IMG/VR virus record: IMGVR_UViG_3300037408_000144
Span: 1-61,148 of that record
DNA length: 61,148 nt
From: a virus
Lineage: Duplodnaviria; Caudoviricetes
Reading direction: 5' to 3' (one strand)
The notes beneath the pieces are model-generated. The model ran no database searches and was not told the origin of the DNA. It was given only the letters and a program-made list of their open reading frames with translations. Positions 319 through 32,787 of this stretch are shown here, piece by piece (within the stretch, counting starts at the first letter, position 1; each line of letters starts with the position of its first letter). Both the position numbers and the translations under genes were made by a program.

Positions 319-936
319 CTAGACGCCCGCCCATCGCTTCATCGTGACGATATCGTGCAAATACCTCGGGTTCAAGCCGTGACGCCTAGCGTATTCGGCC
401 AGATCACCTTTCTGCCACCCGGCAAGGTCGGCGCGGATGGTACGCACCTGATCTGCCGTGAAGCGCGTGCTGGAGCGGTTGCGCGCCTGTTCGGCCTTCG
501 TCGCAAAGCGGCAGTTCGCCGGCTCGTAGCCGCGGGCGTTGTCAATACGGTCGATGGTCAGGTCTTCGCGCCAGCCAGTCGCCCGCGCCCAGGTGGCGAA
601 CGCTTCGTAACTGTCCCATTCGCTGCACACGACGACGCCTCGGGCCACGTAGTAGGGGTCGTTGCCGCAGCGCCGACGCATGCTCAACCAAGCCCGGTGA
701 AGCGCGGTGCCAGTTTCTTTGTGGCGGGTGAGGTTGGCGCCATTGGTGACCGACCGCTCGCGCTTGAAGCAGCCGCAGGAAGTCGTGTTTCCGACGTGGA
801 GCGCAGCCGAGTCAACAGACAGTTCCTTTCCGCATTTGCAGACGCAAAACCAGTGGACGCGCCGCTTCGACGTGTCCCTGGAAAGCACGGTGAGTCGACC
901 GTATTGCTGGCCTGTGCGGTCTACAAAAGCGCCCAT
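319..936 (-). CDS. Free-standing HNH-type homing endonuclease (205 aa), antisense to the tail operon
   Basis: ATG at 936; motifs YGRLTVL, WFCVCKCG, TTSCGC, WLSMRRRC, TIDRIDNARGYEPANCRFATKAEQARNR; the track's extension to 1590 is a shadow frame. Confidence 0.85.
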   Translation of the reverse strand: MGAFVDRTGQQYGRLTVLSRDTSKRRVHWFCVCKCGKELSVDSAALHVGNTTSCGCFKRERSVTNGANLTRHKETGTALHRAWLSMRRRCGNDPYYVARGVVVCSEWDSYEAFATWARATGWREDLTIDRIDNARGYEPANCRFATKAEQARNRSSTRFTADQVRTIRADLAGWQKGDLAEYARRHGLNPRYLHDIVTMKRWAGV

Positions 937-2186: not shown

Positions 2187-2477
2187 ATGGCAACCGTCCT
2201 TGGTAAGTTCACCAAACAGTCCGGCGAGACGCTGGACTACTACGTCGATTTCACCGACTGGTTCTCCAATCGGTCGGATGCCCCTGCGTCCCACACCGCG
2301 ACCGCAGACGCCGGCATCACGGTGACCACGAGTTCGCTGTCCGGCAACAAGGTCAAGGTGGTCCTGTCGGGCGGCACCAACGGCACGAAGTACAAGGTCA
2401 CGGTCAAGCTGACGACCAACTCGACACCGGCCATCGTCAAGGAAGCCGACTTCCTGGTCACGGTGAAGGACGTCTGA
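2187..2477 (+). CDS. Small fibre-tail adaptor-like protein
   Basis: KQSGETLDYYVDFTDW...LSGGTNGTKYKVTVKLTT, a common small beta-rich phage tail family. Confidence 0.7.
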   Translation: MATVLGKFTKQSGETLDYYVDFTDWFSNRSDAPASHTATADAGITVTTSSLSGNKVKVVLSGGTNGTKYKVTVKLTTNSTPAIVKEADFLVTVKDV

Positions 2478-2478
2478 C

Positions 2479-4134
2479 GTGAAGCTGCAGCTGCGCACGT
2501 TCACCGGGATGCGGCCGGCGTCGGCCGTCGACCTGCTCAAGCCGGGCGAGGCAGCTTCGGCCATCAACACCTCGTTCTCCGGCGGCGACCTGGAGCCCCT
2601 GAATGCCCTGTCCGCAGCTGTCGTCACGCTGACGTCAGTCCTGGAGCTGAAGACCATCTACCGTTTCGGGCAGTCCAACACCAACGAGGCGCAGTACTGG
2701 TTCCAGGCAGACACCGACGCCAACTTTGTCAAGGGCCCGCTGGACGGCGACACTGAGGAGACGACGTACTTCACAGGCACGTCGGCCGGGCCCTCCAAGA
2801 CACGCGCCAGCGTCGCAACTACAGGATCTCCGTACCCGTCCACGGTCTACAAGATGGGTCTGCCCAAGCCCAACACGCCCACCGTGGTGCTGTCCGGCAC
2901 GGCGACTGACCCGCAGTCGACTCCTGAGACCGTGGCCTACGTGGTGACCCTGGTGTCGCAGTGGGGTGAGGAGAGCGAGCCGTCGGCGCCGTCGGCGCTC
3001 GTGACGTGGCGCGCAGGACAGACCATCACCGTGACGTCGCAGACCTCTGGCTCGGGTAGCTACCTTCTGTCTACTGGGGCGAAGAAGCGCATCTACCGCT
3101 CGGCCACCGGCACCTCCGGCTCGGCCAAGTACCTGCTGGTGAACACGGATGACGCCTTGGCCATCACCACGGCGGACTACGCCGACACCAAGGCCACCAG
3201 CGCGCTGGGCGAGGCGCTGCGGAGCAAGAACTGGACGGAACCGCGCAGCGACATGTTCGGCCTCGTGCAGATGGCCAACGGCATCATGGCCGGGTTCAGC
3301 GGCAACACGGTGTGCTTCTCCGAGCCGTTCGTGCCCCACGCGTGGCCGCGCAAGTACGAGCAGTCGGTGGACGCCACCATCGTTGGCGGCGCCGTGTTCG
3401 ATCAGTCGCTGCTGGTGGCCACCAAGCGCAGCCTGTACCTGTTCACGGGCTCCGACCCGGCGCAGCTGACGTCCGAGCGGCTGGCCATTACGCAGACCTG
3501 CGTGTCCAAGCGTTCGATGGTGGAGATGAACGGCGGCGTGGTGTTCGCGTGCCCGGACGGCCTGGCCTACATCGGCCCGGGCGGATTCAAGCTGCTGTCC
3601 GACGGCCTGCTGACGCGCTCGCAGTGGCAGGCGTACAAGCCGGACTCAATGCACGCGTACAACACTGACACTGACTATGTGGTGTTCTACGACACCGGCA
3701 CGGTCAAGAAGGGCCTGCTGTTCAGCTTCGGCACGGAGATGAGTTTCTGCGAGCTGGACTTCTACGCCACCGCAGGGTTCCGCGACCGCGGGCGCGATGC
3801 GCTGTACCTGTGCGTCAACGGCACCGGGTCGAACCGAGAGATCAGGAAGTGGGACGCCGGCTCGGCGCTGTCGATGACCTGGGAGTCCGGCGAGTTCCGT
3901 CTGGAGGCCCCGGTGAACATGAGCGTGGCCCGAGTCGAGACGGTGGGGGCGGTGAACTTCGAGCTGCTGGCTGATGGGTCTGTGGTGTACGGCCCGACCT
4001 CGATCTCTGGCCGGCAGGCATTCAAGCTGCCAGCGGACTACCGAGCCACGCGGTTCCGCGTGCGGGTCAGCGGTACAGGCCGCGTGCGGTCCATCGAGCT
4101 GGCGGATTCCATGAGGAGCTTGGCCGATGGCTGA
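2479..4134 (+). CDS. Tail tubular / head-closure (nozzle-like) protein
   Basis: 551 aa, beta-rich; FSEPFVPHAWP and VFACPDGL motifs; directly precedes the fibre. Confidence 0.7.
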   Translation: MKLQLRTFTGMRPASAVDLLKPGEAASAINTSFSGGDLEPLNALSAAVVTLTSVLELKTIYRFGQSNTNEAQYWFQADTDANFVKGPLDGDTEETTYFTGTSAGPSKTRASVATTGSPYPSTVYKMGLPKPNTPTVVLSGTATDPQSTPETVAYVVTLVSQWGEESEPSAPSALVTWRAGQTITVTSQTSGSGSYLLSTGAKKRIYRSATGTSGSAKYLLVNTDDALAITTADYADTKATSALGEALRSKNWTEPRSDMFGLVQMANGIMAGFSGNTVCFSEPFVPHAWPRKYEQSVDATIVGGAVFDQSLLVATKRSLYLFTGSDPAQLTSERLAITQTCVSKRSMVEMNGGVVFACPDGLAYIGPGGFKLLSDGLLTRSQWQAYKPDSMHAYNTDTDYVVFYDTGTVKKGLLFSFGTEMSFCELDFYATAGFRDRGRDALYLCVNGTGSNREIRKWDAGSALSMTWESGEFRLEAPVNMSVARVETVGAVNFELLADGSVVYGPTSISGRQAFKLPADYRATRFRVRVSGTGRVRSIELADSMRSLADG

Positions 4135-27191: not shown

Positions 27192-27449
27192 TCAGACTTG
27201 GGAGTGTTCCCAGTGTTCTTTCGCGCCGACGTGCGCGTCGTCGATGTGCTGTGCCAGGTCCCGCACGTGCACCATGAGTGGTGCCTTCTGCGACTCGCGC
27301 AGGCGGAAGGTGGGGACTGGCAGCTTGTTCAGTGCCGCGTGTTCCTGTGCTGCCTTCGGAGACAGCCCGAAATACTGCTCGCAGATGCTGGCCAGGGGGA
27401 CGACTGGTGCGCCGAGGTTAGACACCAGGGTCTTTTCCGTGTCGGTCAC
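27192..27449 (-). CDS. PrtN-family protein (probable excisionase-like)
   Basis: VPLASICEQYFGLS...LPVPTFRLRESQKAPLMVHVRDLAQHID. Confidence 0.8.
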   Translation of the reverse strand: MTDTEKTLVSNLGAPVVPLASICEQYFGLSPKAAQEHAALNKLPVPTFRLRESQKAPLMVHVRDLAQHIDDAHVGAKEHWEHSQV

Positions 27450-27718
27450 TTCTTCTTCCTCCCGTACATGTCGCCGTGCTCGTCGCGCCAGCTGCGGTTT
27501 TCACCGCGGTCGACGACGCGCAGGTTGCCCTTCGCGTTAGTGCCCCCCTTGTCCAGGGGCCGCTTGTGGTCTACATCCTTGCCGTCGCCGACACGCGCCC
27601 GGCCGTCCTTGATGGCTTCGCGGCGCGCGGCGTTGTTCTGCACGCGCTTGTCCACGTTCTCGGGGCGGGCGTTATATGCCTTCTGGTATTCCAGCTTGGC
27701 CTTGCTACTCTTTGGCAT
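27446..27718 (-). CDS. Small HNH endonuclease
   Basis: GDGKDVDHKRPLDKGGTNAKGNLRV..ENRS. Confidence 0.85.
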   Translation of the reverse strand: MPKSSKAKLEYQKAYNARPENVDKRVQNNAARREAIKDGRARVGDGKDVDHKRPLDKGGTNAKGNLRVVDRGENRSWRDEHGDMYGRKKK

Positions 27719-28073: not shown

Positions 28074-28248
28074 GAATACTGGCCGCCAGTCGGCGGGCTT
28101 CAGACACGACTTCCTTGTGGAGGACGTCGATTTCTTCCAGGGCACCCATGAGGCGCGACACCAGGACGATCTCTCTGTCCGAGGCGTAGTTGTCCTGCAA
28201 GACCTGGTCGATAAGGTCGGTTGTCGTTTGTTGTTCGTAGCAGTTCAT
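28060..28248 (-). CDS. Hypothetical protein
   Basis: Overlaps both neighbours. Confidence 0.6.
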   Translation of the reverse strand: MNCYEQQTTTDLIDQVLQDNYASDREIVLVSRLMGALEEIDVLHKEVVSEARRLAASIHGDA

Positions 28249-28904
28249 GTTCTTCCGGAAAATTCACACTGAGTCTTCGTGACAGGGCACCACGCCCTGC
28301 ACAGTCCTGACGGTTTCGGGGGAAACTTCTCGTCCTCGATGGCAAGCTCCAAGCGCTGCACGCGAGACTTGAACCCGTCCCACAGGCGGGCGGCGTCGTC
28401 ACGTGTGTATTGTGCTGCATCGAGTCGGTCATGGCCAAGCCACGCATACGCTGTTCTGATTGTTTCGGCATGTGGGAACACCGAGAATGCCGTAGCTGCA
28501 AACAGTTCGAGTTGATCCGTATCAGATTTGGGCTTCCCAGTTTTCCAGTCGACGATCGTCACGCTCTTGGGTTTGACGACGGCCAAGTCGTACACCCCCC
28601 GCACCCACACGTCCTTGGCGAAGAACCCGGTAGGCCGCAGGGTCTTGGTCAGGCCGAACTTGTGCTCCACGTGCTTGATGCCGGGTGATGCCTTCACGGC
28701 CTCCACGATCGGGATGTAGCGCTTGTACTTCTCGGGCAGCCACTGCTCGCCCTTGATGTGCTGCTCGATGGCCTTGTGCACCTGGTTGCCGCTGATGGTC
28801 GCCTCGGTCTGCGGCTCGACAACGGTCTTGAGGATCTTTGTCAGATAAAAGCGCCTCGGGCACGTCTCGTACGCCCCGAGGTAGCTGTAAGACCAGGCGG
28901 TCAT
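28245..28904 (-). CDS. PD-(D/E)XK (Cas4/RecB-like) exonuclease
   Basis: WSYS..YETCPRR, GNQVH, RGVYDL..IVDWKTGK, QLELFA, LCRAWCP. Confidence 0.85.
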   Translation of the reverse strand: MTAWSYSYLGAYETCPRRFYLTKILKTVVEPQTEATISGNQVHKAIEQHIKGEQWLPEKYKRYIPIVEAVKASPGIKHVEHKFGLTKTLRPTGFFAKDVWVRGVYDLAVVKPKSVTIVDWKTGKPKSDTDQLELFAATAFSVFPHAETIRTAYAWLGHDRLDAAQYTRDDAARLWDGFKSRVQRLELAIEDEKFPPKPSGLCRAWCPVTKTQCEFSGRT

Positions 28905-29215
28905 CTCGGCTTACCTTGAAGGCGGTCCGCGACGAGCTGGGCGTACCCAGCAATATCGACCCAGGAGTCATCGTAGTCCGGGTCGCCGTTCACAATGCGC
29001 CCGATCTTATGGAAGATCATCTCCAGCGCTTCCATCTGGTCGTCGGCCAGGGTCTTCTGTCGCTCCGCCAGCGCCCCCTGCAGCGCGATCTTAAGTGTCT
29101 GCGTCACACGTGCGTGACCAGCGAACGGCCCGTACCGCTTCCCTCTGGCGTCTAAGGTCTCTGACAGGGTCGGCTTACTTTCTAACACGCCGTCAGGCAT
29201 GGCTGATCCTTTCAT
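28901..29215 (-). CDS. DUF6378-like protein (104 aa)
   Basis: RGKRYGPF..HKIGRIVNGDPDYDDSWVDIAGYAQL. Confidence 0.75.
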   Translation of the reverse strand: MKGSAMPDGVLESKPTLSETLDARGKRYGPFAGHARVTQTLKIALQGALAERQKTLADDQMEALEMIFHKIGRIVNGDPDYDDSWVDIAGYAQLVADRLQGKPR

Positions 29216-29270
29216 GGTATGCTTCTCGCGGTTTCCTTCGGTGTTAGTTGGTGTGGATCTACATATTACC

Positions 29271-32114
29271 TTATTTCGCGTCGCCGTAGCAGCCGGCGAA
29301 CGAACCTTCTGACCAGAGGACGATCTGAGGCCACCACGACGGCGGGGTGCGCATGATGCGCTGCAGTTCAGCCAGCAGGGGCTCGGCCTCTGACTGCGGG
29401 AACATGTAGACCAGTTCGTCGTGCAGCCGCATGACCGGACGCAGCCCAGTGGACTTGAAGAACCGCAAGGCACACTCGAACACGCTGTCGCGGGCTAGGG
29501 CTTGGACGATGTTCTCGTCGACCTTCGGGCCTGTCAGGAACGCCCTGTGCCGCCCTTCGGCGTACACCCAGGACATCTTGGCCCGGCCGTCCTCCCACTT
29601 CTCACCCGTGTCCATGAACCGCAGGTTCGGGTACCGGATCTTGCGCCCGCTGGGAAGCTGCAGTCCCTCGGCACAGGTGGTGACCAAACCCCACGGGTCG
29701 ATCTCGCGCTTGACGTTGCGCACCACGTCGTGCAGGGCAGCTCCGCAGGTCTTCCAGCCGTCAACGATTTCGGCGTAGCGAGTGCGCCAGCGCTCCACAC
29801 CGTCCTGGGACTCCTCGTTCGACAGAGTGATGCCGCCCATCGTGCGCGCCACTCGAATGAACGTCTTCCACCCGGAGCCGAACCCCAGGCCCAACTGGCA
29901 GTTGGAAACTAGCCGGTCACTGACAGTGAAACGATGTCGGGGTCCGGCGTTGAGAAGGTCCCATACACGCCTTTCGGCTTGTCGCTGGGGCGGACCCAGC
30001 GGGCTACTATCTGTTCGTCGGTCATCCCCATAGACAGCAGATTGCGCAGCGTGTTGTCCGCGTACCGGACCTCCGGGTAATTCTGGCGGAACATGTGGAA
30101 CCGCTTCACATTCGACCCCCGGCGATTGGCCATGTTCTGAGCCCGCGTCACCCACCGAAGGTTGCCCGGCGAATACCCGCTGTTGTTGTCCTTCCGGTCC
30201 AGCTCCTTGCTTCGTTCCAGTCCCAGGTTCTGCATAACCCATACTGCCGCCGCCGCTACGGACTCGAACTCGAACGTCACGCCCCGGCCACCGTACAGCG
30301 GATACGCTATGTCGTTCGGGTTCGTGCAGCGCTGTCGCGCTGCCTCCAAGCGCTTCAACAGCCACGTCGGGGCACCGCACTTCTGGCTGCAAGATTGGCA
30401 TGCGCGCGACTTCCCCGATCGCAAGCTGTCGTAGCTCACTGCACGCACTGTCGCGCACCCGGTGCACCGCACTGTGACGTACCGATACCCCTTGACGCGT
30501 GTCCATTGCCTCGACACCAGCTCCGCCAAACCCCAGCGGTGCCCCACCGGCTCCGGTGCGAGCGAGCCGGAGTGATTGCGAGGCTGCATCCCGCAGAAGA
30601 ACCTTCCGTCCGTCCTCGACCCAGACTTCGTGGTCTGGGGTCGCTGTGAGTCCGTCATACGTAACCACCTCCCTGACACCGTTGAAGATCGGGCCGTCGT
30701 GGTGAACCCACTCGATCCCGTCCCAAACTAAATCTAACACACTAACGGTTTCTATCGGTTTGGGACCGGAATCTGTCAACACCAACTCCCCCTCAGCGAT
30801 GCACACTTTGGCAAACTGGCGCTCCGGCTTGACGATCTCGTCGGGGGCCTTGTCGTAGTAGAACGCGGCGAAGTCCTTGTACAGGTCCGCCTTCGGGTCT
30901 TGCGCGTACAGCGCCATCGTGGACGGCACCTTCCACAGGGTGTGGTTGACCCGCAGCTCGATGCCGGACTGGTCGGCCACGCCGACCACGTAGCCCTTCG
31001 GGGCACGTAGACTCTTGCGCAGGGCGTCGCTGATCTTCGGCCGATCGGGGTCCACCCGGGGGAGGTTCTGCGGGTTGTACAGCCAGCCGCTGTCGCGTCC
31101 CGTGGTGTCGGCACCGCAGTATTTCAGGGGCACCGGCAGGAACCCGTTCAGCTTGGCCTGGGTCTGCAGGAACGCCTCGATGCGCGTCTCCAGCAGGGTG
31201 GACTTCACCGCCAGGCGGGTGCGGGCCGCCGCGGCTACGATCGGGTCGTCGTGCTCCTGCAGGGCCTGGAACTCCTCGTCGGTCTTGGCCAGGGCCGGCA
31301 CCCGGTTCTCCGGGTTGGTGGGCGAGGGTTTCATGGGCACCTCGACGCCGCGCTGCGTCAGCAGGGCGGAGAACTTCGGCGCGGACGCCAGTTGCTCGCG
31401 AACCCACTCGGCGATGCCTTCCTCACCCTGCTCCCAGAAGTCCTCCACGTCGGGCTGCAGCATCTTGGCCAGGTCCAGCAGGGCGCGGTGCTTGTTGGAC
31501 CGCTCGACCGACGCCGTCGTCTCCAGCAGCCCCGTGTCGATGGTGAACTTGGGCTCCACCAGCATGCGGATGTTGCAGTCCAGGTGCCACAGTTCCTCGG
31601 CCTTGAAATGCGGGGCCAGCTTGTAGAACAGGGCCGCGCACTGCTCGGTGTCCTCCCGGTTGTACTTCTCCATCGCGGCCAGTTCCTCGGGTGTGAACTC
31701 CTCCAGCCGCCGCCCCTTGGTGTTGATGAGTGCTGCCTGATCCTTGACGCCCAGCTCGTAGTGCGCCACCAGCTTGCCCAGGCCCAGGCCGACGTCCTTG
31801 GCGTGCAGAACCCGCGCCATTGCCAGCGTGCAGCCCCACATCTTGGGCTTGATGCCCAGGCGCCACGCCGAGATCATGGCGTCAAATTCGGAGTTGTTGT
31901 GGGCTACCAACAGACTGTCCGACCAGTCCAGGGCGTGCAGGTGCCGGCGGATCTCGGCTTCTCCGAAGAAGACGTCAGTCGGTGCGCCACCCACTTTCAC
32001 TGCGCACGAGATCAGCTGTGTGTCCGGATGCAGGACGTACTCGATCGGGGACATCTTGCTCAGGGAGTGAGTCGGGGACCAAAAGGTCTCGTAGTCCAGG
32101 AATACTGTCCGCAC
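29271..32114 (-). CDS. Family A DNA polymerase precursor with intein (947 aa; ~646 aa spliced)
   Basis: Exonuclease LDYET/AHN..FD; TTGRDSG..NPQNLP; motif A ADQSGIELR; motif B RQFAKV|CQLGLGFG split by the insert; motif C LHDELV; GTG start at 32114 inferred. Confidence 0.9.
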   Translation of the reverse strand: MRTVFLDYETFWSPTHSLSKMSPIEYVLHPDTQLISCAVKVGGAPTDVFFGEAEIRRHLHALDWSDSLLVAHNNSEFDAMISAWRLGIKPKMWGCTLAMARVLHAKDVGLGLGKLVAHYELGVKDQAALINTKGRRLEEFTPEELAAMEKYNREDTEQCAALFYKLAPHFKAEELWHLDCNIRMLVEPKFTIDTGLLETTASVERSNKHRALLDLAKMLQPDVEDFWEQGEEGIAEWVREQLASAPKFSALLTQRGVEVPMKPSPTNPENRVPALAKTDEEFQALQEHDDPIVAAAARTRLAVKSTLLETRIEAFLQTQAKLNGFLPVPLKYCGADTTGRDSGWLYNPQNLPRVDPDRPKISDALRKSLRAPKGYVVGVADQSGIELRVNHTLWKVPSTMALYAQDPKADLYKDFAAFYYDKAPDEIVKPERQFAKVCIAEGELVLTDSGPKPIETVSVLDLVWDGIEWVHHDGPIFNGVREVVTYDGLTATPDHEVWVEDGRKVLLRDAASQSLRLARTGAGGAPLGFGGAGVEAMDTRQGVSVRHSAVHRVRDSACSELRQLAIGEVARMPILQPEVRCPDVAVEALGGSATALHEPERHSVSAVRWPGRDVRVRVRSGGGSMGYAEPGTGTKQGAGPEGQQQRVFAGQPSVGDAGSEHGQSPGVECEAVPHVPPELPGGPVRGQHAAQSAVYGDDRRTDSSPLGPPQRQAERRVWDLLNAGPRHRFTVSDRLVSNCQLGLGFGSGWKTFIRVARTMGGITLSNEESQDGVERWRTRYAEIVDGWKTCGAALHDVVRNVKREIDPWGLVTTCAEGLQLPSGRKIRYPNLRFMDTGEKWEDGRAKMSWVYAEGRHRAFLTGPKVDENIVQALARDSVFECALRFFKSTGLRPVMRLHDELVYMFPQSEAEPLLAELQRIMRTPPSWWPQIVLWSEGSFAGCYGDAK
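29901..30803 (-). mobile_element. Intein (301 aa) in polymerase motif B
   Basis: Block A CIAEGELVLTDSG; block B TATPDH; blocks F/G VWDLLNAGPRHRFTVSDRLVSN followed by Cys+1. Confidence 0.92.
29909..30658 (-). CDS. HNH-type homing endonuclease (249 aa) nested in the +1 frame of the intein
   Basis: GGAGGT SD 8 nt before ATG; RCTGC..CQSC; RQRCTNPN..YPLYGGRG; LDRKDNNSGYSPGNLRWVTRAQNMANR. Confidence 0.88.
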   Translation of the reverse strand: MTDSQRPQTTKSGSRTDGRFFCGMQPRNHSGSLAPEPVGHRWGLAELVSRQWTRVKGYRYVTVRCTGCATVRAVSYDSLRSGKSRACQSCSQKCGAPTWLLKRLEAARQRCTNPNDIAYPLYGGRGVTFEFESVAAAAVWVMQNLGLERSKELDRKDNNSGYSPGNLRWVTRAQNMANRRGSNVKRFHMFRQNYPEVRYADNTLRNLLSMGMTDEQIVARWVRPSDKPKGVYGTFSTPDPDIVSLSVTG

Positions 32115-32256
32115 GTCGGTATCTTTCGATGATGGTTTGGATGGTGCCGAACGTGGCACCACATGAATCGCACTTGTGCCTGCGACGCATGACCCCGGAG
32201 ACCGGGGTGCGCGATGACGTCACGTGGGTGTGCGCGTTGCAGCTTGGGCAGCGCAT
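31975..32256 (-). CDS. NrdR-N-like zinc ribbon protein
   Basis: MRCPSC..T.V.SSR..RRRHKCDSCG.TF.T; AAGGA SD; 3' part overlaps pol. Confidence 0.65.
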   Translation of the reverse strand: MRCPSCNAHTHVTSSRTPVSGVMRRRHKCDSCGATFGTIQTIIERYRRADSIPGLRDLLVPDSLPEQDVPDRVRPASGHTADLVRSESGWRTD

Positions 32257-32274
32257 GGGTTTCCTTCCACGAAG

Positions 32275-32292
32275 CGGGCCCCGAAGGGCCCG
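32275..32292 (-). terminator. GC hairpin with TTCG loop (possible terminator)
   Basis: CGGGCCC-TTCG-GGGCCCG just after a stop codon; weak T tail. Confidence 0.4.
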
Positions 32293-32298
32293 GAAGTC

Positions 32299-32787
32299 TC
32301 AGTCGTCGGTGTCGGCCATCTCGGCCAGCATCGCCATAGCCTTGAACTGCGCGACGTTTTGATCGGCCGCCGTACCGTCGGTACGCACGGCGATGGGGGG
32401 CATCGGGGCCACCGGGATCATCCGCTGCTGCATGTCGGCATGCAGGGCGTGTTGCAGCGTCACAAGCTCGTCGAAGCGCTTGTTGATCAGGGCCTTCAGC
32501 GCGTCGAGCTGGCCCGGCAGAGCCGCTGCCGCGGCCTTGGCCGCCTTGGCTTCCTTCAGCCTGACCGAGGGGTTCGGAAGGTTCCTCTCCGCCCGCACGG
32601 CGTCGCGGCGTTCGCGCTCGGCCCTGGCCACGCCATATGCGTGGTCCCCGTACAGCTCGAAGCTGCGCTTGCCGACCTTCACCTGGCGGGCCGGCTTGAC
32701 TTCCTTGGCGTCGAACAGCTTGCGCAGGCTGGTGCCGTCGAAGTTGAACGCGCGGGCGATTTCGCTGAACGTGTAGGCTTTATCCAT
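32299..32787 (-). CDS. Hypothetical protein, possible N-terminal HTH (162 aa)
   Basis: AAAGGA SD; YTFSEIARAFNFDGTSLRKL. Confidence 0.7.
   Translation of the reverse strand: MDKAYTFSEIARAFNFDGTSLRKLFDAKEVKPARQVKVGKRSFELYGDHAYGVARAERERRDAVRAERNLPNPSVRLKEAKAAKAAAAALPGQLDALKALINKRFDELVTLQHALHADMQQRMIPVAPMPPIAVRTDGTAADQNVAQFKAMAMLAEMADTDD

What the first reader, a model, noticed from the sequence alone, without database searches (positions are those of the whole stretch)
29901..30803. Intein whose homing endonuclease is a separate gene overprinted in the +1 frame
Seen: a 903-bp in-frame insert splits polymerase motif B (RQFAKV|CQLGLGFG) and has all splicing blocks (Cys1, TxxH, terminal Ser-Asn, Cys+1). 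Its ~190-aa middle has no endonuclease motifs and reads like a shadow frame (CAA GGA GCT GGA CCG GAA GGA CAA CAA). The +1 frame on the same strand encodes an intact 249-aa HNH-type endonuclease (AAG GAG CTG GAC CGG AAG GAC AAC AAC). Its SD and start (GGAGGT-N8-ATG, 30658) are written into the intein's VREVVTYD codons, and its stop (29909) lies within block G. Established: homing inteins normally carry the endonuclease in frame. Inference: a dual-coding selfish element. Frame 0 must stay open for 750 nt so the polymerase can be made and spliced, while the nuclease is translated independently by internal initiation. I cannot check how often this architecture has been reported.
Basis: partly seen in the sequence, partly recalled or inferred. 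Interest (0 to 1): 0.93.

Follow-up and report, generated by a model that had tools for sequence, protein, structure and literature searches.

The report
Polymerase intein with overprinted HNH nuclease
A phage DNA polymerase gene carries a self-splicing protein insert (intein) whose homing nuclease is a separate gene written in a shifted reading frame over the same DNA; over a hundred related phages and prophages share this layout, and similar layouts were first reported for other inteins in 2025-26.

Summary
A 903-nt (301-aa) insert at 29901..30803(-) splits motif B of a family-A DNA polymerase. It carries Cys1, TxxH, C-terminal Asn and Cys+1. A 249-aa HNH-type ORF (ATG 30658, TAG 29909) lies in the +1 frame.

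It is not a sequencing artefact or a GC-rich chance ORF.
- The same +1 arrangement occurs in 51 of 51 viral contigs and in 76 of the 80 best bacterial-genome loci, at GC 0.35-0.67.
- Given the HNH protein, 3.4-28.6 polymerase-frame stops are expected and none is seen.
- Nucleotide variability peaks at polymerase codon position 3 in the splicing blocks. It switches to HNH codon position 3 across the middle.
- The frame-0 middle is predicted disordered, while the +1 product folds.
- ATG plus a GAGG-type ribosome-binding site, written into block-B codons, is conserved.
- All 28 nearest polymerase relatives examined lack the insert.
- One pair of relatives shows a homing signature: intein 92-99% identical, exteins 55-75%.

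Translation, splicing and cleavage are inferred, not shown. Out-of-frame intein nucleases were described in 2025-26 preprints: EndoVII-like in actinophage inteins and LAGLIDADG in cyanobacterial dnaX. So this is a new, very widespread member (HNH, +1 frame, PolA) of a recently recognised kind.

The parts
29271..32162 (-). Family-A DNA polymerase precursor ORF (963 aa from the first GTG; true start not determined)
   Evidence: ORF; Pfam DNA_pol_A, E 1.7e-09, 37.5 bits, above the 34.3 cutoff; tblastn to phage DNA polymerase I genes
30804..32162 (-). N-extein, ending ...RQFAKV (first half of motif B)
   Evidence: (48-64% aa identity to 29 viral-contig polymerases)
29901..30803 (-). Intein, 301 aa in frame 0 (Cys1 ... 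Ser-Asn)
   Evidence: absent from 28 of 28 nearest polymerase relatives examined
30555..30803 (-). N-terminal splicing domain (intein residues 1-83; block A Cys1, block B T55-x-x-H58)
   Evidence: invariant C1, T55, H58; variability peaks at polymerase codon position 3 in residues 1-60; pLDDT 65-82 for much of residues 1-80; 16 of the 18 best structural matches are inteins or an intein-like domain, Z no higher than 3.9
29970..30554 (-). Frame-0 read-through 'linker' (intein residues 84-278): a shadow frame kept free of stops, with no conserved peptide
   Evidence: pLDDT about 28-40, no secondary structure; polymerase position 1 most variable, position 3 least; 0 stops seen, 3.4 expected
29901..29969 (-). 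C-terminal splicing domain (intein residues 279-301; blocks F and G, RVWDLLNAGPRHRFTVSDRLVSN)
   Evidence: alignment with 53 relatives; invariant D282, N285, F292, N301; variability back at polymerase position 3
29898..29900 (-). Cys+1, first residue of the C-extein (intein-less relatives have Ala here)
29271..29900 (-). C-extein, starting CQLGLGFG (second half of motif B)
29909..30658 (-). HNH-type endonuclease ORF in the +1 frame (249 aa plus TAG)
   Evidence: PHROG 374 'HNH endonuclease', E 6.3e-24; PHROG 3377, E 3.2e-21; 36-39% identity, E 1e-39 to 5e-37, to the same place in Streptococcus and Gardnerella phage polymerase genes; selection in this frame
30668..30672 (-). Shine-Dalgarno-like GGAGG, 9 nt before the ATG, made from the Arg-Glu-Val codons of the intein
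   Evidence: (SD-like motif in 81 of 91 unique relatives; GAG at the Glu codon in 70 of 84, against a background of 0.39)
30656..30658 (-). ATG start of the HNH ORF, made from TAT-GAC (Tyr49-Asp50 of the intein)
   Evidence: ATG in 81 of 91; 3 of the ORF's 20 Tyr codons are TAT, all inside the intein; this is one of them
29984..30559 (-). Folded core of the HNH protein (residues 34-225): N-terminal beta domain with CxxC...CxxC, nuclease core, C-terminal helical domain
   Evidence: pLDDT mostly 80-95; residues 1-33 and 226-247 below 50; residues 94-180 against PacI 3m7k_A: Z 5.4, rmsd 3.0, 73 aligned
319..936 (-). Free-standing paralogue of the same HNH family elsewhere in the phage (about 205 aa from an internal ATG). 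It is not part of the intein but bears on its origin.
   Evidence: E 2.0e-7, 39% identity over HNH residues 103-182

Best explanation
The window is a complete, 61-kb, GC-rich phage genome. Its family-A DNA polymerase gene is interrupted in motif B by a class-1-type intein. The intein's homing endonuclease is not part of the intein polypeptide. It is a separate HNH-type gene overprinted in the +1 frame of the same strand.

Proposed mechanism:
1. Ribosomes reading frame 0 make a precursor consisting of N-extein, N-splicing domain, a disordered read-through peptide of about 195 aa, C-splicing domain and C-extein.
2. This precursor splices like a mini-intein with a long tether, giving an active polymerase. 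This step is inferred.
3. Other ribosomes start on the same mRNA at the internal GGAGG-N9-ATG, which is written into the block-B codons. They make a 249-aa nuclease whose folded core lies exactly between the splicing domains. This step is inferred from conserved signals.
4. The nuclease cuts intein-less polymerase alleles during co-infection, and repair copies the whole element in. This step is inferred from the sporadic distribution and from one homing signature in relatives.

Shown here: the arrangement, its conservation, stop avoidance in frame 0, and the switch of purifying selection between frames.
For: (1) Anatomy is exact.

(2) Conservation.
- The HNH homologue is +1 relative to the annotated polymerase CDS in Streptococcus phage PhiSdyV1524 and Gardnerella phage vB_Gva_AB1.
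- It is +1 in 51 of 51 IMG/VR loci, GC 0.35-0.60.
- It is +1 in 76 of the 80 best bacterial-genome loci retrieved with a pattern from the nuclease motif alone. Three of the other four are free-standing genes and one is a 527-bp contig.
- None has the nuclease in frame with an intein.

(3) Stop avoidance. In 37 of 37 unique sequences there are 0 polymerase-frame stops, against 3.4-28.6 expected. P is 0.029 for the window and 1.7e-3 to 4e-21 for the others. The third frame carries 8-27 stops.

(4) Frame-specific selection in 22 representatives below 90% nt identity. Diversity is highest at polymerase position 3 in intein residues 1-60 and 282-301. It is highest at polymerase position 1 (HNH position 3) and lowest at polymerase position 3 (HNH position 2) in residues 84-281.

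(5) Structure. The +1 product has an ordered core at residues 34-225, and its disordered tails coincide with the overlaps with blocks B and F/G. The frame-0 middle has pLDDT about 30 and no secondary structure.

(6) Start signals in 91 unique sequences.
- ATG is present in 81 of 91.
- TAT is used at the Tyr codon in 80 of 88, against a background of 0.55.
- GAG is used at the Glu codon in 70 of 84, against a background of 0.39.
- An SD-like motif is present in 81 of 91.
- In the window, 3 of the polymerase ORF's 20 Tyr codons are TAT. All three lie in the intein and one makes the ATG.
- An in-frame stop lies 1-2 codons before the ATG in 62 of 80 loci.

(7) Mobility. All 28 nearest polymerase relatives examined lack the insert and read ...KVA(H/Q)LGLGFG. 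Comparing L003 with L006, the intein is 92-99% identical at the nt level, the exteins are 55-75% identical, and the roughly 150-nt flanks are 87% identical.

(8) Identity of the nuclease: PHROG HNH families at E 6e-24 and 3e-21.
Against: - No expression, splicing or cleavage data exist.
- The window's own copy has no close relative: HNH identity to the others is 33-42%. Its current activity therefore rests on intactness alone.
- The window's penultimate intein residue is Ser, whereas most relatives have His.
- Curated intein and HNH models do not reach their thresholds.
  - Pfam finds no intein domain.
  - TIGR01445 hits two relatives at E 0.078 and 0.15, below its cutoff, and does not hit the window.
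  - Pfam HNH_3 scores 13.6-14.3 bits against a cutoff of 24.8, and matches 2 of 17 members.
- Structural matches are weak: Z 5.4 for PacI and Z no higher than 3.9 for inteins. Foldseek gave nothing at E of 0.001 or better.
- The position where I expect the first His of the HNH motif carries an invariant Arg (D-R-x-D). My placement of that position is by eye.
- 10 of 91 relatives lack the ATG at the conserved place.
- The counts are not phylogenetically independent.
- One of the two patterns used is the +1 reading of block B, which biases that retrieval. One search corrects for this.
Confidence: 0.8

Rival explanations
1. The arrangement is real, but the nuclease is made by programmed +1 (or -2) ribosomal frameshifting from the polymerase frame. 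The product would be a fusion of N-extein, the intein N-domain and HNH, not a protein started independently.
For: Both frames lie on one strand and probably on one mRNA: no sigma-70-like promoter was found inside the gene. The first 33 residues of the +1 product are predicted disordered, so the ATG is not needed for the fold. 10 of 91 relatives lack the ATG at the conserved place.
Against: The ATG and an SD-like motif are conserved against codon bias. In 62 of 80 loci an in-frame stop lies 1-2 codons before the ATG, so any shift would have to occur after it. I did not look for a slippery site.
Confidence: 0.06
2. In this particular phage the +1 ORF is an inactive relic. The family was once mobile, but here only frame 0 (polymerase and splicing) matters, and the HNH ORF is open because little time has passed or because GC-rich DNA has few stops.
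For: The window is 64% GC, and long shadow ORFs abound there. For the window alone the stop-avoidance P is only 0.029. There is no close relative in which to measure selection on this copy. Decayed relatives exist: L053 is a 168-aa mini-intein, and L001 has its HNH cut to 195 aa.
Against: Given the frame-0 peptide, about 3.3 stops are expected in the +1 frame and none is seen (P about 0.001). All 20 invariant family residues, the CxxC...CxxC pairs, the SD and the ATG are intact.
Confidence: 0.1
3. The insert does not splice. It stays in the polymerase as a tolerated loop, as proposed for the ShiLan out-of-frame HNH insertion in phage methylases.
For: Curated intein HMMs do not reach their thresholds. 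The window has Ser rather than His before the terminal Asn. No splicing data exist.
Against: Cys1, T55-x-x-H58, the block F/G residues, the terminal Asn and Cys+1 are invariant or nearly so, and are under frame-0 purifying selection. The best sequence and structure matches of the N-domain are inteins. The site is inside motif B, where a 301-aa loop would be expected to disable the enzyme; that expectation is from general knowledge of family-A polymerases and was not tested.
Confidence: 0.03
4. Assembly or sequencing error: two compensating indels displaced an in-frame nuclease.
Against: The same +1 relation holds in 2 GenBank phage records, 51 of 51 viral contigs and 76 of the 80 best bacterial-genome loci from unrelated projects. 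The overlap-specific codon choices (TAT, GAG) are conserved.
Confidence: 0.01

Closest known systems
[quoted passage not shown]
   Same: A bona fide intein whose nuclease is a same-strand ORF in another frame. The frame-0 middle has no recognisable structure. The authors propose origin by invasion of a mini-intein by a free-standing nuclease gene.
   Different: The nuclease class is EndoVII-like, not HNH; their HNH inteins are in frame. The frame is 3, not +1. The hosts are terminase, minor capsid, thymidylate synthase and Pol III alpha of actinophages, not PolA. [quoted passage not shown] Here the start signals sit in block B and the stop in block G. Their supplementary tables were not visible to me.
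Cyanobacterial dnaX intein with an out-of-frame LAGLIDADG nuclease (Phillips, DeSimone and Gogarten, bioRxiv 10.64898/2026.09.14.751524; passages read)
   Same: A widely distributed intein with the nuclease in an overlapping same-strand frame. Selection depends on the frame, frame 0 is disordered, and the distribution is sporadic.
   Different: LAGLIDADG rather than HNH. The +2 frame rather than +1. A cellular dnaX gene of one phylum rather than phage and prophage PolA across many phyla.
ShiLan out-of-frame HNH insertion in mycobacteriophage DNA methylases (Arsenault et al., Genes 2025, PMC11855218; passages read)
   Same: A hidden HNH ORF inside an insertion that stays open in the host gene's frame. 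The nuclease stop sits at the very end of the insert. The authors discuss translation by internal initiation.
   Different: ShiLan has no splicing blocks and no intein-like structure. Here the splicing blocks are present and conserved. The frame (third) and the host gene also differ.
[quoted passage not shown] 1997; not read by me)
   Same: The same two functions (protein splicing and an HNH nuclease) in one mobile insert.
   Different: There it is one polypeptide. Here there are two products from two frames, and none of the loci I examined has this HNH clade in frame.
Fractured genes: split inteins with a free-standing nuclease gene between the halves (Dassa et al. 2009, PMC2677866; search listing and abstract only)
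   Same: The nuclease is a separate gene associated with an intein. A free-standing nuclease gene invading an intein is the proposed origin.
   Different: There the host gene is broken into two ORFs and splicing is in trans. Here frame 0 is continuous and splicing would be in cis.
Salmonella Jerseyvirus 'intein-containing DNA polymerase precursor' (GenBank annotation; examined here as L054)
   Same: A 299-aa intein at the same motif-B site. It carries a homologous HNH of 247 aa (about 30% identity) that is out of frame, with frame 0 stop-free (0 stops seen, 6.1 expected, P 4.6e-4).
   Different: The nuclease is in the +2 frame, not +1. The splicing-domain sequence differs, and the start is 92 nt into the intein. 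I found no paper describing this.

Membership tests
Intein (class-1 type, HINT fold) | In-frame insertion at a conserved site of the host protein, absent from homologues | tested here: met
   28 of 28 nearest polymerase relatives examined read ...KVA(H/Q)LGLGFG without the 301 aa; frame 0 is continuous.
Intein (class-1 type, HINT fold) | Block A nucleophile (Cys/Ser1) and block B TxxH | tested here: met
   C1, T55 and H58 are invariant in 18 sequences. Cys1 is present in all 54 rows.
Intein (class-1 type, HINT fold) | C-terminal Asn followed by Cys/Ser/Thr +1 | tested here: met
   N301 is invariant and Cys+1 is present.
Intein (class-1 type, HINT fold) | Penultimate His of block G (usual but not universal; that some active inteins lack it is recalled, not tested) | tested here: not met
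   the window has Ser (LVSN), L049-L051 have Leu, and most relatives have His.
Intein (class-1 type, HINT fold) | Match to curated intein models or to the HINT fold | tested here: inconclusive
   no Pfam intein domain. TIGR01445 at E 0.078 and 0.15 in two relatives (below cutoff), none in the window. DnaE inteins are the best PDB sequence hits, at E 0.2-0.3; 16 of the 18 best structural matches are inteins or an intein-like domain, but Z is no higher than 3.9.
Intein (class-1 type, HINT fold) | Protein splicing activity | not testable with these tools
   Needs expression of the precursor.
HNH (beta-beta-alpha-metal) homing endonuclease | Match to HNH family profiles | tested here: inconclusive
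   PHROG 374, 3377 and 2081 ('HNH endonuclease') at E 6e-24, 3e-21 and 1e-12. Pfam HNH_3 scores only 13.6-14.3 bits (cutoff 24.8) and matches 2 of 17 members; no NCBIfam hit.
HNH (beta-beta-alpha-metal) homing endonuclease | Beta-beta-alpha-metal fold | tested here: inconclusive
   residues 94-180 against the HNH restriction enzyme PacI (3m7k_A) give Z 5.4, rmsd 3.0, 73 aligned and 20% identity. This ties with an unrelated chain. Foldseek found nothing at E of 0.001 or better.
HNH (beta-beta-alpha-metal) homing endonuclease | Catalytic His-Asn-His/Asn residues | tested here: inconclusive
   N166 and N178 are invariant. Where I place the first His there is an invariant Arg (E-x-D-R155-x-D). That placement is by eye and not from a structural alignment.
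HNH (beta-beta-alpha-metal) homing endonuclease | Site-specific cleavage of the empty allele | not testable with these tools
   The only indirect evidence is the homing signature in L003 against L006.
Inteins with an out-of-frame, same-strand homing endonuclease (2025-26 preprints) | Nuclease ORF in another frame of the same strand, between the splicing blocks, with frame 0 kept open | tested here: met
Inteins with an out-of-frame, same-strand homing endonuclease (2025-26 preprints) | Frame-0 middle without structure, and purifying selection in the nuclease frame | tested here: met
Fractured gene / split intein with free-standing nuclease | Host gene split into two ORFs | tested here: not met
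   a single 963-aa ORF.

The most novel reading that the evidence does not exclude
Overprinting may be a stable, ancient and repeatedly reached solution, not a brief accident on the way to an in-frame nuclease or to decay.
- One clade of free-standing phage HNH genes (a paralogue sits at 319..936 of this same phage) has entered PolA motif-B inteins at least twice, in different frames: +1 here and +2 in Salmonella Jerseyviruses.
- It has also moved with its intein to a second site in the polymerase (L052).
- It has spread through phages and prophages of many bacterial phyla.
- Its ribosome-binding site and start codon are kept inside block-B codons.

Uncoupling the two products would let the nuclease be made at its own low rate from the polymerase mRNA. 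It would also let the intein splice as a tethered mini-intein.
Probability: 0.45. Interest if true: 0.7.

Novelty: new member of a known kind. Interest (0 to 1): 0.6.

Why it matters
- The 'splicing first' model holds that intein-nuclease composites arise when a free-standing nuclease gene invades a mini-intein. It predicts intermediates in which the two are still separate genes. This family is a large natural example, spread across many phyla, with clean evidence of selection in both frames and a visible homing event.
- Hundreds of deposited phage and prophage polymerase genes probably contain an unannotated nuclease gene. In the GenBank records I opened, the feature under the match is only 'DNA polymerase'.
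- The overlap allows unusually clean genetics. Changes synonymous in one frame can abolish the other product.
- The frame-0 tether is a natural case of an intein splicing across about 195 disordered residues, if splicing is confirmed.

Tried and rejected
- Near-identity DNA search in phages found nothing.
- Foldseek of the whole HNH model against the PDB gave no match at E of 0.001 or better.
- The PDB sequence search with the HNH profile gave only a DnaD-like hit at E 0.67.
- NCBIfam gave nothing for the window's intein or HNH.
- The promoter scan found no sigma-70-like site in 29200..32400, and one terminator-like site on the other strand, fewer than in shuffles.
- The first resampling script timed out. 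I replaced it with an exact dynamic-programming calculation.
- The all-pairs comparison of intein and extein identity was unusable for divergent pairs, because free end gaps produced identities of 0, 0.5 or 1.0 over tiny spans. Only L003 against L006, L010 and L011 was interpretable, and I re-did L003 against L006 by windowed alignment.
- My block-B regular expression missed 28 of 134 loci. The counts from that call therefore cover 91 unique sequences only.
- Rows dropped:
  - One search left out L021, L023, L040, L048, L052, L053 and duplicates.
  - One search left out L021, L023, L052, L053 and duplicates.
  - One search left out L085, whose match covers residues 20-116 only.
- Considered and rejected:
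  - Sequencing error is contradicted by the homologues.
  - A chance GC-rich ORF is contradicted by low-GC relatives and by the third-frame control.
  - A split or fractured gene is contradicted by the continuous frame 0.
- Literature: searches found no paper describing an out-of-frame HNH in a PolA intein. The library lacks most subscription journals and supplements were closed, so Supplemental Table 1 of the 2025 preprint may list cases I could not see.
- Recalled rather than computed: the identification of RQFAKV|CQLGLGFG with family-A motif B (the O-helix), and the statement that some active inteins lack the penultimate His.
This call repeats it with that field added.

Full report
**1. What is there.**
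- On the minus strand a 963-aa ORF (29271..32162) matches Pfam DNA_pol_A at E 1.7e-09.
- It also matches phage DNA polymerase I genes by tblastn, for example Rhizobium and Pseudomonas siphoviruses at about 30% identity, in two pieces that skip the middle.
- The window is a whole IMG/VR virus record of 61,148 bases, rated 100% complete. Its GC content is 0.64.
- After ...RQFAKV the ORF continues with CIAEGELVLTD... and returns to the polymerase at ...RLVSN|CQLGLGFG.
- Reading the bases puts Cys1 at 30803-30801, the terminal Asn at 29903-29901 and Cys+1 at 29900-29898.
- In the +1 frame of the same strand an ORF runs from GTG 30679 (ATG 30658) to TAG 29911-29909. From the ATG it is 249 aa.
- GGAGG lies at 30672-30668, 9 nt before the ATG.
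- These signals are made of the intein's Arg-Glu-Val-Val-Thr-Tyr-Asp codons. The stop lies 8 nt before the intein's end.

**2. The insert is absent from the nearest polymerases.**
- I searched viral contigs with the N-extein and found 29 loci at 48-64% aa identity.
- I examined 28 of them. L085 was left out because its match was too short.
- All 28 read straight through the site as ...QRQ(V/L)(G/A)KVA(H/Q)LGLGFG, with 222-338 further residues and no insert.
- The window differs there only by the 301 aa and by Cys in place of Ala at +1.

**3. The same two-frame arrangement is found everywhere the nuclease clade is found.**
- tblastn with the +1 product hit 859 phage records. The seven records covering at least 80% of the query lie inside 'DNA polymerase I' genes of six Streptococcus phages and one Gardnerella phage, at 36-39% identity and E 1e-39 to 5e-37.
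- In the two I opened, the homologue is in frame +1 of the annotated polymerase CDS. That CDS stays open through it at 44% GC.
- A scan of IMG/VR with an alignment of the three nucleases returned 51 loci at GC 0.35-0.60.
  - In 51 of 51, the frame one base upstream of the nuclease frame is open across the whole match, within ORFs of 578-1209 aa.
  - The third frame is broken into stretches of 12-80 aa.
  - One of the two search patterns was the +1 reading of block B, so that retrieval leaned towards the arrangement.
- I therefore repeated the scan on one genome per prokaryote species with an alignment of the nuclease core only. The tool used the single pattern DRI[DN][NT][ND][GSK][NDH]Y.
  - 526 of the first 600 pattern matches were relatives, and the best 80 were kept.
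  - 76 of the 80 have the nuclease at +1 of a long ORF. 72 of those 76 also match a loose pattern for the intein blocks.
  - Of the other four, L095 is a 527-bp contig and L162, L164 and L165 are free-standing genes.
  - No locus has this nuclease in frame with an intein.
- The record titles name hosts from Bacillota, Actinomycetota, Pseudomonadota, Synergistota, Spirochaetota, Bacteroidota, Lentisphaerota and others.

**4. Frame 0 is kept open by selection.**
- For each of 37 unique sequences I held the nuclease protein fixed and drew synonymous codons from the same gene's extein usage. I then computed exactly the expected number of polymerase-frame stops and the probability of none.
- The sequences were the window and L001-L053, minus six atypical rows and duplicates.
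- Observed: 0 in 37 of 37.
- Expected: 3.4 for the window (P 0.029), and 5.9-28.6 for the others (P 1.7e-3 to 4e-21).
- The third frame, as a control, carries 8-27 stops against 6-18 expected.
- The reverse test holds the frame-0 peptide fixed and asks whether the nuclease frame is open. It expects 2.2-9.3 stops and sees none. P is 0.001 for the window.

**5. Purifying selection changes frame inside the intein.**
- I used a codon alignment of 22 representatives below 90% nt identity, drawn from 39 unique sequences.
- Mean pairwise diversity by polymerase codon position (1 / 2 / 3):

| Intein residues | Position 1 | Position 2 | Position 3 |
|---|---|---|---|
| 1-48 | 0.25-0.39 | 0.08-0.23 | 0.55-0.69 |
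| 49-60 (block B) | 0.11 | 0.10 | 0.42 |
| 282-301 | 0.18-0.19 | 0.15-0.18 | 0.35-0.52 |
| 96-277 | 0.51-0.72 | 0.27-0.48 | 0.18-0.38 |

- The first three rows show the usual pattern of a gene read in frame 0.
- In residues 96-277 the most variable position is the third position of the +1 frame, and the least variable is its second.
- Residues 61-95 are transitional.
- The sequences are related, so these are descriptive statistics, not independent tests.

**6. Structure predictions agree.**
- The +1 product, modelled with an 18-row alignment, has mean pLDDT 74. It has an ordered core at residues 34-225, with most 10-residue blocks at 80-95. Its tails (1-33 and 226-247) are disordered.
- The tails are exactly the parts that overlap the splicing blocks.
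- The frame-0 intein, modelled the same way, has pLDDT 65-82 over much of residues 1-80. From residue 83 onward pLDDT stays below about 41. No secondary structure is predicted between residues 83 and 290, and only short strands appear at 291-300.
- Aligned to 48,161 PDB representatives, the frame-0 model gave only weak matches (Z no higher than 3.9). However, 16 of the 18 best are inteins or an intein-like domain, all on residues 1 to about 45 or 1 to about 90.
- The best PDB sequence hits of the intein profile are DnaE inteins aligned over block B, at E 0.2-0.3.
- For the nuclease, residues 94-180 align to the HNH restriction enzyme PacI with Z 5.4, rmsd 3.0 and 73 residues. This ties with one unrelated chain.
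- PHROG families annotated 'HNH endonuclease' match at E 6e-24, 3e-21 and 1e-12.
- Pfam HNH_3 stays below its threshold.
- The clade has invariant Asn166 and Asn178. An invariant Arg sits where I would place the first His. I therefore call it HNH-type on profile evidence and leave its catalytic competence open.

**7. How the nuclease is probably made.**
- 91 unique sequences could be located by a block-B pattern. These came from 108 pattern matches; 28 of the 134 loci were missed by my pattern.

| Feature | Count | Background |
|---|---|---|
| +1 triplet at the conserved Tyr is ATG | 81 of 91 | n/a |
| Tyr codon is TAT | 80 of 88 | 0.55 at other Tyr codons of the same ORFs |
| Glu codon four codons upstream is GAG | 70 of 84 | 0.39 |
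| SD-like motif 5-18 nt upstream | 81 of 91 | n/a |

- In the window's polymerase ORF, 17 of 20 Tyr codons are TAC. The three TAT all lie in the intein, and one of them makes the ATG.
- In 62 of the 80 loci with the ATG, an in-frame stop lies 1-2 codons before it. The nuclease frame therefore cannot be entered from upstream.
- No sigma-70-like promoter lies inside the gene.
- Internal initiation on the polymerase mRNA is thus the best-supported route. It is inferred, not shown.
- The nuclease ORF ends at variable places: 8, 50 or 53 nt before the intein's end, or 22-31 nt beyond it. This fits a non-functional read-through tail.

**8. Mobility.**
- The insert is absent from all 28 nearest polymerases examined.
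- In addition, L003 and L006 have exteins 55-75% identical at the nt level but inteins 92-99% identical. The identity of the adjacent 150-nt windows is 87%.
- This is the pattern expected from recent homing with co-conversion of flanks.
- Decayed states also exist:
  - L053 is a 168-aa mini-intein.
  - L001 has its nuclease ORF cut to 195 aa.
  - In L021 and L023 the polymerase frame ends in block F.

**9. What is known.**
- Out-of-frame intein nucleases are no longer unheard of.
- Gosselin et al. (bioRxiv 2025; I read the abstract, passages and section 15) report actinophage inteins with an EndoVII-like nuclease in frame 3, and with antisense LAGLIDADG or VSR-like nucleases. Their HNH inteins are in frame.
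- Phillips et al. (bioRxiv 2026; passages) report a +2 LAGLIDADG ORF in the cyanobacterial dnaX intein, with frame-dependent dN/dS. They remark that few broadly distributed examples are documented.
- Arsenault et al. (Genes 2025; passages) describe an out-of-frame HNH in a methylase insertion that is not an intein.
- Six searches found no description of an out-of-frame HNH in a PolA intein. The one Jerseyvirus paper I opened mentions inteins only in passing.
- Supplements were closed.

**10. Verdict.**
- The element is best filed as a new and unusually widespread member of the recently recognised class of inteins with an overprinted homing-endonuclease gene. Its particulars are an HNH-type nuclease, the +1 frame, PolA motif B, start signals inside block B and a stop in block G.
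- Confidence in the architecture and its selection is high.
- Splicing, independent translation and cleavage remain to be shown.

Noticed in passing
L054 (Salmonella phage vB_SenS_S528, Jerseyvirus) 2352-3248; nuclease ORF 2444-3187: The annotated 'intein-containing DNA polymerase precursor' has a 299-aa intein at the same motif-B site. Its homologous HNH (247 aa, about 30% identity to the window's) is in the +2 frame, not +1. Frame 0 has 0 stops against 6.1 expected (P 4.6e-4), and the third frame has 27. One search lists 364 Salmonella phage records matching the polymerase. I checked one.
   Followed up: partly
window 319..936 (-): A free-standing paralogue of the same HNH family (about 205 aa...GRLTVL...CVCKCG...SCGC...IDRIDNARGYEP.NCRFAT...) lies near the left end of the phage. 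It sits inside a longer GC-rich open frame (E 2e-7). It is a possible donor type for the nuclease in the intein.
   Followed up: partly
L052 (IMG/VR contig), polymerase ORF 3-2333: This polymerase has a short (about 150-aa) intein at the motif-B site. It also has a second, related intein (CLAQGTLVLTDRGL...) at another site (...YGGKLAEN|C). The HNH match (1558-1905) lies in that second intein, which suggests the element has moved to a new target within the gene.
   Followed up: no
L053 2844-3347; L041; L001 2501-3088: Decayed forms occur. L053 is a 168-aa mini-intein with only 85 codons of the nuclease frame left. L041 is a 260-aa intein with a 193-aa nuclease ORF. In Streptococcus phage PhiSdyV1524 the nuclease ORF is cut to 195 aa while frame 0 stays open.
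   Followed up: partly
L021 and L023, polymerase frame ending at 3361 / 3731: The polymerase frame stops inside block F (...AGVYDIP*) and unrelated sequence follows. This may be a rearranged or defective element, or a chimeric assembly.
   Followed up: no
L040 about 2995-3003, and 9 further unique loci: The conserved Tyr codon is TAC (8 loci), TGG (2) or CAT (1). The CAT locus still reads ATG in the +1 frame, so 10 loci lack the internal ATG. In L040 the +1 frame is open further upstream and has other Met codons. Alternative starts were not examined.
   Followed up: no
L002, L013, L015-L020, L025-L028, L033-L036, L046 (nuclease ORF ends): In these relatives the nuclease ORF runs 22-31 nt past the intein's end into the C-extein, so its stop codon is supplied by host-gene sequence.
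   Followed up: no
window 27446..27718 (-) and 28245..28904 (-): Just downstream of the polymerase gene on the minus strand there is a 90-aa ORF with an HNH-like ...DVDHKRPL...GNLRVV...N motif. There is also a 219-aa ORF with Cys motifs reminiscent of Cas4/RecB-type exonucleases. I read both by eye and did not search with them.
   Followed up: no
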